From NCBI RefSeq assembly GCF_033153115.1, contig NW_026889751.1, positions 27,652,001 to 27,716,000 of the forward strand: a stretch of DNA of 64,000 nt, written 5' to 3'. The notes beneath the pieces are model-generated. The model was not told where the DNA came from, made no database searches, and saw only the letters and a program-made list of their open reading frames with translations. The position numbers were made by a program, and so were the translations under genes. The DNA is from Saccostrea echinata. Lineage: Eukaryota. Each line of letters begins with the position of its first letter. The first letter of the stretch is position 1. Below, piece after piece: positions 14,901 to 17,900 of this stretch.

Positions 14901-17900
14901 TGTAAGAGTTTTAATAAAAATATCTTCAATAGTTGCTTTAAAACTGAGCTAAGCACATAAAATGGAATAGTGATGTCAAGGTCACATGTATTGTCAAGAT
15001 GAGAAAATTATGCCACATTTGAATAGCTCTCAACAAAATTTATAAAAGTAAGCATTTTGGTCAACATACCATGAACAGTGTCTTTGAAACTAAACTAAAT
15101 GTAAAGTGTGACAGATGGACAGACAGAGGGAAAGATGGACATGACAAACACTATATGCCAAAGCTTATAATATTCATGGCATGGCATAAAATTGTTCATC
15201 CTCACAATGTCAAGGTTTTGTGATCTCGGAACTCCACTTGTGTGGAGTTCCGAAATCACAAAACCTTGACATTGTGAGGATGAAAATTGTTGCAAATTAA
15301 TTTGTTGAATATGTTAAGAATGTTTACCAGCACTTCTTCAAATGAATTTTGTTAGCATTATAAGTAATGAAGACATTAAGCTGCTGTTAAATTCTTACGT
15401 CAAAGCGGTTCAGGAAGAACCACCAGAACGTGTCCTGCATTACAGCGACTGAGGCCTCCGATAAAAACAGCTTCTTCCAGAACTTCTTAAAACCAGGCTA
15501 AAAACAAATTGTATACAGTTTTACTTTAAACAATATATATTTAAAAAATCCTTATGAATAATGGCTAACAGGCAAGAAGTGTTTGCTACTGATAGAAATC
15601 TTACCTAATTTGTCAATATAATTAAGTCAGAAAAATCAGTCAGTTGAATTGTCTCAAGATTGGAAACCATGAAATATAAAAAAAAATCTTTAGATCTTTA
15701 GTAGGAAATGTTACAGGTACTTCATACAGTGTATAATTCAAAGTTAATTCAATATATTATTTTCCAATTAAAGTGAAAGAAACCCAAAAGCTAAATTAAG
15801 TTCTCTTAGCACTCACACAAGTTATAGTTCAGGTGTTCAAATTATGCTTTGTTCAATGCAATTCCTTATTTCCTATTAGACACTTGCATAAAGGTTCTAG
15901 GCATTGGTGACCCTTAAAATTTTATTATTTCATTTGCATTTTTCAAAGATATGGGCCTTCAGGTGACCCAGCATAGTTTTGTTACACTTAGAGTTTTGAG
16001 CCTTGGCTACAATTACATTAAACTTTTGGGCTTTGGTTAGGTTTACATTAAAGTTTTGGGCCTTAGTGACCCTTACAGGTCTATTTATACTTACATTAAA
16101 GTGTTGGGCCTTGGTTACACTTACATTAAAGTGTTGGGCCTTGGTGACCCTGTACAGTTCTATTTATACTTACATTAAAGTTTTGGGCGTTGGTGACCCA
16201 AGTTACAGGTCTATCTATACTTACATTAAAGTGTTGGGCCTTGGTTACACTTACGTTAAAGTGTTGGGCCTTGGTGACCCTGTACAGCTCTATTTATACT
16301 TACATTAAAGTTTTGGGCCTTGGTGACCCTTACAGGTCTGTTTATACTTACATTAAAGTTTTGGGCCTTGATTACACTTACATTAAAGTGTTGGACCTTG
16401 GTAACACTTACATTAAAGTTTTGGGCCTTGGTGACCCTTATAGGTCTATCTATACTTACATTAAAGTGTTAGGCCTTGGTTACACTTACATTAAAGTGTT
16501 GGGCTTTGGTTACACTTGCATTAAAGTGTTGGGTCTTGGTTACACTTACATTAAAGTGTTGGGCCTTGGTTACACTTACATTAAAGTGTTAGGCCTTGAT
16601 TACACTTACATTAAAGTGTTGGGTCTTGGTTACACTTACATTAAAGTTAAGGCCTTGGTTACACTTACATTTAAGTTTTGGGCCTTGGTTACACTTACAT
16701 TAAAGTGTTGGGCCTTGGTGACCCTGTACAGGTCTGTTTATACTTAAATTAAAGTTTTGGGCCTTGGTTACACTTACATTAAAGTGTTGGGCCTTGGTGA
16801 CCCTTACAGGTCTATTTATACTTACATTAAAGTTTTGTGCCTTGGTGACCCTTACAGGTCTGTTTATACTTACATTAAAGTGTTGGGCCTTGGTTACATT
16901 TACATTAATGTGTTGGGCCTTGGTTAAACTTACATTAAAGTTTTGGGCCTTGGTTACACTTACATTAAAGTGTTGGGCCTTGGTGACCCTTACAGTTCTA
17001 TTTATACTTACATTAAAGTGTTGGGCCTTGGTTACACTTACATTAAAGTGTTGGGCCTTGGTTACACTTACATTAAAGTGTTGGGCCTTGGTGACCCTTA
17101 CAGGTCTATTTATACTTACATTAAAGTGTTGGGCCTTGGTTACACTTAAATTAAAGTTTTGGGCCTTGGTTACATTAAAGTGTTGGGCCTTGGTTACACT
17201 TACATTAAAGTGTTGGGCCTTGGTGACCCCTATGGATCTATTTATACTAACGTTAACGTTTTGGGCCTTGGTTACACTTACATTAAAGTGTTGGGCCTTG
17301 GTGAACCTGTACAGTTCTATTTATACTTACATTAAAGTTTTGGGCCTTGGTGACCCTTACAGTTCTATTTATACTTATATTAAAGTTTTGGGCCTTGGTT
17401 ACACTTACATTAAAGTTTTGGGCCTTGGTGAACCTGTACAGTTCTATTTATACTTACATTAAAGTTTTGGGCCTTTGTGACCCTGTGCAGTATGGGAGGA
17501 GACTCAAGCTGAGCAGGGAGCTCTATCAGTTCACCGTGTCTGAACCCTGGGAACTGGCAGTAATCCATACTCTTCTTCCTAGTCTCCATCATTGTCTCCA
17601 CCAGGTCCTAAAATCACAGGTAAATACAGGTAATTACAGGTACTGAAATCACACTTAAATCAGGTAAGTTACAGAAAAGTCCATGCTGATCAACATGTGA
17701 CATGGACTCAACCTTGATTTTCAATTTTTCAAAATCTATTATACAAGGGGCATTTAAAAAAGCTTTTAGAATTTAATTGTTCATTAAAGTACAGTCAAAC
17801 CTCGTTATCTCAAACTCGAAGGGACTGAAAAAATACTTTGAGATAACCAAGGATTCGAGATATCCAGGGTAAAATACTTAAGGAATAAGTAGTTGGGACT

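What the first reader, a model, noticed from the sequence alone, without database searches (positions are those of the whole stretch)
15890..17482. A 1.5-kb minisatellite made of ~40 copies of an exon end plus its 5' splice site
Seen: the array starts in the last ~25 nt of the FAM227B exon (..VTKAQNFN|gtaagt) and repeats exon end plus the consensus donor AAT|GTAAGT in 30-nt and 48/49-nt units, decaying with distance from the exon. The 30- and 48-nt units are stop-free in exon frame ([26 protein letters not shown]), but the unit next to the exon is the 49-nt form with a stop. Some units also contain tacag|g acceptor-like sites. Inference: a dense array of decoy U1 sites that could give alternative donors, NMD isoforms, recursive splicing or nascent micro-exons.
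Basis: partly seen in the sequence, partly recalled or inferred. Interest (0 to 1): 0.7.

Follow-up and report, generated by a model that had tools for sequence, protein, structure and literature searches.

The report
Splice-donor "mirage" minisatellite in oyster FAM227B
In a rock oyster's FAM227B gene, the end of one exon and its splice signal are repeated 43 times in a row and fill most of the next intron, but the assembled transcripts examined use only the first signal, so it is likely a harmless example of a repeat type already known from lancelets and humans.

Summary
The array is real: 43 units, 31 GTAAGT hexamers, single-locus, grown from the last 34 exon bases plus 15 intron bases of FAM227B. 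It does not decay gradually: units 1-37 are uniform and only the last five are degenerate. Spliced contigs from two studies, and both RefSeq isoforms, join donor 17457 straight to acceptor 15497. Any later donor would carry a stop at 17412. All 23 possible single micro-exons shift the frame and lack pyrimidine tracts. The TACAG "acceptors" are copied exon sequence. This is the architecture of human F7/CBS/6-16 VNTRs and amphioxus "mirages" (PMC1557585, PMC3087553), mostly silent. It is not rare here: the same gene has two more donor duplications, and a 1.59-Mb sample holds at least four Pfam-backed ones. The scan reported the same thing before in this genome (parkin, pyruvate carboxylase) and in other genomes. 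Low-level, NMD-hidden use of pseudo-donors is untested, because only contigs were available. Verdict: new member of a known kind, low interest.

The parts
17458..17607 (-). 150-nt coding exon of FAM227B (DLVET...AQNFN), source of the repeat
   Evidence: 50 of 50 residues identical to P0002 in tblastn; covered without differences by the X1 contig
17452..17457 (-). authentic 5' splice site AAT|GTAAGT(AT)
   Evidence: X1 contig letters 531-681 end at 17458 and 682-780 start at 15497; NFN|PGF in RefSeq isoforms X1 and X2
15881..17491 (-). whole tandem array, 43 units, about 80% of the 1960-nt intron
17443..17491 (-). founder 49-nt segment: exon -34 to intron +15
   Evidence: side-by-side print with the next copy
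16067..17428 (-). homogeneous units 1-37 (30-nt and 48/49-nt types interspersed) with 30 intact GTAAGT pseudo-donors
15881..16066 (-). five degenerate end units, none with an intact GTAAGT
   Evidence: 4-11 differences per 26-nt core
17410..17412 (-). in-frame TAA reached 15 codons after the exon; included if any later donor extends the exon
17403..17408 (-). first pseudo-donor (+49 nt), the likeliest site of any leak
   Evidence: position; use not observed
15399..15497 (-). next exon (PGFKKFWKK...), FWWh domain
   Evidence: Pfam PF14922, E 3.8e-09; covered by contigs of X1, X2, X3 and X4

Best explanation
This is a splice-donor minisatellite ('mirage'): a 49-base piece spanning the exon end and its donor is repeated head to tail into the intron, likely through replication slippage and unequal exchange, and it is likely silent because the spliceosome takes the first donor. 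Shown: the unit equals exon -34..intron +15; a variant 18 nt shorter is interspersed; the array is single-locus; the transcripts seen use the first donor. Inferred: a duplication that includes the donor leaves the mRNA unchanged, because every later copy is intronic once the first donor is used, so such duplications survive where duplications inside exons would be purged. Inferred from human F7 experiments: first-donor choice comes from exon definition or 5'-to-3' scanning. Predicted: any leak to a later donor carries the stop at 17412, with at least 9 junctions downstream, and would be removed by nonsense-mediated decay.
For: Unit anatomy and homogeneous core with degenerate ends, the pattern described for amphioxus mirages (PMC3087553 section 16). 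X1's 2131-nt contig runs from 17458 directly into 15497, and its loose end at 15497 is the exon's own last 30 bases, including the ACA codon that none of units 1-37 has. Two X4 contigs (second study) both leave the exon at 17458. 20 of 20 full-length homologues and 6 of 6 further isoforms have no insertion at this junction. In F7, identical downstream donors are functional but unused (PMC1557585). Similar arrays sit at other donors of this gene (12480-12665, 23370-23577) and at four Pfam-backed exon ends elsewhere in the genome, as expected of a recurrent, tolerated accident.
Against: The RNA evidence is contigs only, from runs the tool merely guesses to be RNA; contigs drop rare isoforms and NMD would hide them. 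It is not known that the sequenced animals carry this array. In human 6-16 and CBS the two nearest pseudo-donors are used (as cited in PMC1557585), so leak is a real precedent. 30 of units 1-37 keep a perfect GTAAGT. The scanning mechanism was shown in mammalian cells, not in molluscs. No length polymorphism was tested.
Confidence: 0.83

Rival explanations
1. Leaky pseudo-donors: the nearest one or two copies (17408, 17330) are used in a minority of transcripts, giving stop-containing messages that lower FAM227B output, possibly in proportion to array structure.
For: Precedent in 6-16 and CBS (as cited in PMC1557585). The pseudo-donors are identical from -18 to +6, and 11 others share the authentic GTAAGTAT. 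Local folding does not hide them more than the true donor (mean pairing 0.42 at 17457; 0.17-0.74 at 17 others). All would carry the stop.
Against: Every junction seen in two studies uses 17457; RefSeq isoforms X1 and X2 differ only by a 15-nt micro-exon elsewhere. Related bivalves show no repeat at the start of this intron, which argues against a conserved control element.
Confidence: 0.12
2. Nascent micro-exons or recursive splicing: TACAG|G sites in long units pair with the next GTAAGT to make new small exons or ratchet points.
For: 25 YAG sites lie in the array, 5 of them TACAG|G. Intron gain from mirages has been proposed as a model (PMC3087553).
Against: Pyrimidine fraction upstream is 0.27-0.50, against 0.50-0.75 at the 7 true acceptors I placed exactly (of 12 tried). 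0 of 23 segments (25-43 nt) is a multiple of three. No donor starts directly after the AG, as a ratchet point needs: TACAG is followed by GTTCAC or GGTCAC. The intron is only 1960 nt.
Confidence: 0.03
3. Assembly artefact.
For: No DNA reads were laid across the array.
Against: Units differ from one another in a patterned way, with two length classes and many point variants; collapsed or stuttered assembly would give identical copies.
Confidence: 0.02

Closest known systems
Human F7 intron 7 37-bp VNTR (Borensztajn et al. 2006, PMC1557585; abstract, introduction and discussion read)
   Same: First unit spans the exon-intron boundary; the donor is reiterated in the intron; only the most upstream donor is seen used.
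   Different: F7 has 5-9 units with 4 exon bases; here 43 units of two length classes carry 24-34 exon bases. Mechanism and polymorphism are untested here.
Amphioxus 'mirage' minisatellites: Adh3, globins BflGb6/BflGb9, troponin C, PGBD5 (PMC3087553 section 16 and passages; PMC3902484 one passage)
   Same: Tandem duplication of an exon-intron boundary in a marine invertebrate; no visible effect on splicing; homogenised interior with divergent end units.
   Different: Mollusc host; more copies than the globin cases (3-6); length instability not tested here.
Human 6-16 (IFI6) intron 2, CBS intron 13, LMNB2 and PDGF minisatellites (known to me only as cited in PMC1557585; the originals were not read, not held)
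   Same: Exon-end-plus-donor units in 10-25 copies.
   Different: In 6-16 and CBS two pseudo-donors are used; no such use was seen here.

Membership tests
Splice-junction minisatellite ('mirage' / F7-type VNTR) | Head-to-tail repeat whose first unit spans a real exon-intron boundary | tested here: met
Splice-junction minisatellite ('mirage' / F7-type VNTR) | Splice signal reiterated in the intronic copies | tested here: met
   30 further GTAAGT
Splice-junction minisatellite ('mirage' / F7-type VNTR) | Locus-specific, not a dispersed satellite | tested here: met
   32 of 32 genome matches lie in the array
Splice-junction minisatellite ('mirage' / F7-type VNTR) | Normal mRNA still made from the authentic site | tested here: met
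   contigs of X1 and X4, two studies; RefSeq isoforms
Splice-junction minisatellite ('mirage' / F7-type VNTR) | Homogenised interior with divergent boundary units | tested here: met
Splice-junction minisatellite ('mirage' / F7-type VNTR) | Copy-number variation between alleles | not testable with these tools
   no DNA reads could be laid across the array
Leaky donor minisatellite (6-16 / CBS type) | Downstream pseudo-donors used in transcripts | tested here: inconclusive
   none seen, but only contigs were available
Recursive splice site | Pyrimidine tract + AG directly followed by a donor consensus | tested here: not met

The most novel reading that the evidence does not exclude
The array is one product of a mutational process that preferentially duplicates splice junctions in this oyster, not just of selection sparing them, and has seeded such arrays at thousands of exon ends, with a regional hotspot around this locus; arrays like this one would then be length-variable sources of poison isoforms across the genome.
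Probability: 0.2. Interest if true: 0.5.

Novelty: new member of a known kind. Interest (0 to 1): 0.17.

Why it matters
By itself little: it adds a mollusc example to a repeat type known from humans and lancelets. I found no bivalve case in print (searches, limited to the held library). With 30 identical spare donors and an exon-specific marker base 19 nt from the junction, it is a convenient natural test of whether first-donor selection is as strict in molluscs as in human F7. The wider point, that such arrays are common in this genome, would matter for intron growth and for gene annotation if a proper genome-wide count confirmed it.

Tried and rejected
No RNA holder on record was listed; all 6 runs are guessed RNA and contigs only. 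No contig of X1, X3, X4 or X6 covered 17370-17429, which proves nothing by itself. Genome-wide enrichment is not established. With the window included, GTAAG ranked 5 of 512 five-mers (28 vs 15.2 expected); without it, 13 of 512 (22 vs 13.6 in 250 arrays, nominal p 0.02). GC polarity was 18 vs 9 of 29 (p 0.16), and my exon-likeness filter did not separate donor words from controls. GTAAG sites began an array in 8 of 500 cases against 7-17 of 500 for the other seven words. In FAM227B an ungapped test flagged 2 of 13 donors against 40 of 1500 random places; it missed the 12635 array, and three donor coordinates were slightly off, so I discard the binomial printed there. A misplaced unit 22 was corrected. 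The 58-nt array at 51991-52261 follows an exon-like frame for which no homologue or Pfam family was found. Folding did not single out the true donor. Papers PMC307004, PMC1783408 and PMC306954 were not held. A FAM227B + splicing search gave nothing relevant in the 15 of 16 listings shown. No supplements were read.

Full report
Gene context. The window carries a minus-strand gene whose exons match P0002, named by its source 'protein FAM227B-like isoform X2 [Saccostrea echinata]', essentially residue for residue. The exon at 17607-17458 encodes DLVET...AQNFN. The next exon, 15497-15399, carries the FWWh domain (PF14922, E 3.8e-09). The intron between them is 1960 nt, about 80% of it array.

The observation. 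There are 43 units, mostly 30 nt (23) or 48/49 nt (14), interspersed without a fixed order. GTAAGT occurs 31 times, against a shuffle mean of 0.40. The core occurs nowhere else in the genome: 32 of 32 matches are here. The long unit is a copy of exon -34 to intron +15, and the short unit is 18 nt shorter. The five TACAG|G sites are therefore the exon's own His-Arg codons. There is no gradient of decay: units 1-37 differ from the majority core by about one base throughout (rho -0.01), and only the last five are degenerate (mean 6.6). All 37 inner units read ACC where the exon reads ACA. The loose end of two X4 contigs gives an exon end with ACC (agreement 0.97, i.e. two differing bases), and one X4 contig differs from the exon at 7 places. 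I infer that a second exon allele has ACC and that the array was seeded from, or homogenised on, that state.

What later donors would do. Extending the exon to any of the 42 later unit ends includes TAA at 17412-17410, 15 codons past the exon; by established NMD rules such a message, with at least 9 junctions downstream, would be degraded. Of 25 YAG sites, 23 have a later GTAAGT; the segments are 25-43 nt and none is a multiple of three. Their upstream pyrimidine fraction is 0.27-0.50, against 0.50-0.75 at the 7 true acceptors placed exactly. That the 30- and 48-nt units are open in exon frame needs no explanation beyond their origin in coding sequence.

What transcripts do. Six runs were listed, all contigs and all only guessed to be RNA; their joints skip introns of this gene exactly, so they are spliced. 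A 2131-nt X1 contig lies on 17608-17458 with letters 531-681 and on 15497-15399 with letters 682-780; identity of the contig across the two answers is inferred from equal length and depth. Its loose end at 15497 is the exon's last 30 bases with the exon-specific ACA. Two X4 contigs, from a second study, leave the exon at 17458. RefSeq isoforms X1 and X2 both read NFN|PGF and differ by a 15-nt micro-exon at 21709-21695. All 20 full-length homologues among the 23 hits lack an insertion here. The other three hits are genomic read-throughs from unnamed sources: they show the same intron position and, over 3 to about 30 codons, no repeat, so the array is likely lineage-specific.

How common. The same gene has a 67-nt triplication over donor 12635 and a 106-nt duplication over donor 23478. 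In 1.59 Mb of other genome sequence (159 stretches, chosen by me, 20 of them flanking the window) there are 250 single-locus arrays of period 15 or more. Of 116 open frames flanking arrays, 8 hit Pfam, 7 outside the window. By inspection, 4 of these arrays span a donor (ATR, MRCK, EF-hand and tyrosine-phosphatase exons), 2 an acceptor and 1 a stop codon. Arrays with two or more GTRAG are denser in the 200 kb beside the window (7) than in the other 1.39 Mb (16; p 0.02). Tests for a genome-wide excess were mixed: GTAAG ranks 13 of 512 words and first among its permutations, but the polarity and site-based tests were not significant. So the type is common here; a bias towards splice sites is suggested, not shown. 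The scan's earlier notes describe the same structure in parkin and pyruvate carboxylase of this genome, and 82 notes in at least 20 genomes hold the search words; these are unchecked leads, and they pointed me to the mirage papers.

Comparison with what is known. PMC1557585 (abstract, introduction, discussion read) describes the human F7 intron 7 VNTR, whose identical downstream donors work when tested but are not used, and cites 6-16 and CBS (two pseudo-donors used) and LMNB2 and PDGF (none used). PMC3087553 (section 16 and passages) and PMC3902484 (one passage) describe amphioxus mirages, which do not disturb splicing and show homogenised interiors with divergent ends. PMC10078293 (passages) catalogues human repeats linked to splicing variation, so an effect of length is possible in principle. 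The oyster array meets every defining feature that I could test; length polymorphism could not be tested. Searches for a bivalve case returned nothing relevant.

Verdict. A real and fairly large splice-donor minisatellite, a new member of a known kind, likely silent (0.83). A minor leak into NMD remains possible (0.12). Interest 0.17.

Noticed in passing
window 12480-12665 (-): 67-nt unit, about 3 copies, spanning the end of FAM227B exon 12907-12636 and its GTAGAT donor.
   Followed up: partly
window 23370-23577 (-): 106-nt duplication of a FAM227B exon end with its donor; the copy still translates with 53% identity and ends in GTATTG.
   Followed up: partly
window 22753-22974 (-): 21-nt array of about 10 copies starting about 13 nt after donor 22986, with donor-like GGTAACT in its units.
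   Followed up: no
window 17602-17674 (-): Short 35-nt duplication over the acceptor side of the same 150-nt exon.
   Followed up: no
window 51991-52261 (+): 58-nt array of 4.7 copies with AAT|GTAAGT after an exon-like 101-nt open frame; no homologue or Pfam family found.
   Followed up: partly
window 21695-21709 (-): 15-nt alternative micro-exon (NKEDS) that separates RefSeq isoforms X1 and X2; Ostrea edulis isoforms have TKEDS.
   Followed up: partly
window about 10737-10784 (-): Stretch that would encode [13 protein letters not shown], an alternative exon present in two Ostrea edulis isoforms but in neither RefSeq isoform of this gene.
   Followed up: no
window 13812-13815: X4 contigs show two acceptor positions three bases apart, one with TCG between the sides; allele or alternative acceptor not resolved.
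   Followed up: no
window 36992-37231 (+): Open frame with a GIY-YIG domain (E 1.3e-07), likely part of a Penelope-type element (family name recalled).
   Followed up: no
window 18259-20465: 166-nt satellite array of about 13 units in the intron upstream.
   Followed up: no
L027 2301-4652: 2.35-kb array of a 42-nt unit holding a pyrimidine tract + CAG|G, ending at an exon-like sequence: a likely acceptor-side counterpart, larger than the finding.
   Followed up: partly
L019 7565-8489 (-), L028 8741-9111 (+), L039 6012-6978 (+), L074 7030-7330 (+): Further donor-type arrays (up to 22 GTAAG copies in L019; L039 follows an EF-hand exon).
   Followed up: partly
L015 8142-8416 and L016 5798-5957 (+): Acceptor-spanning repeats before exons hitting Cu2_monoox_C and NHL, likely one peptidylglycine-amidating enzyme gene.
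   Followed up: partly
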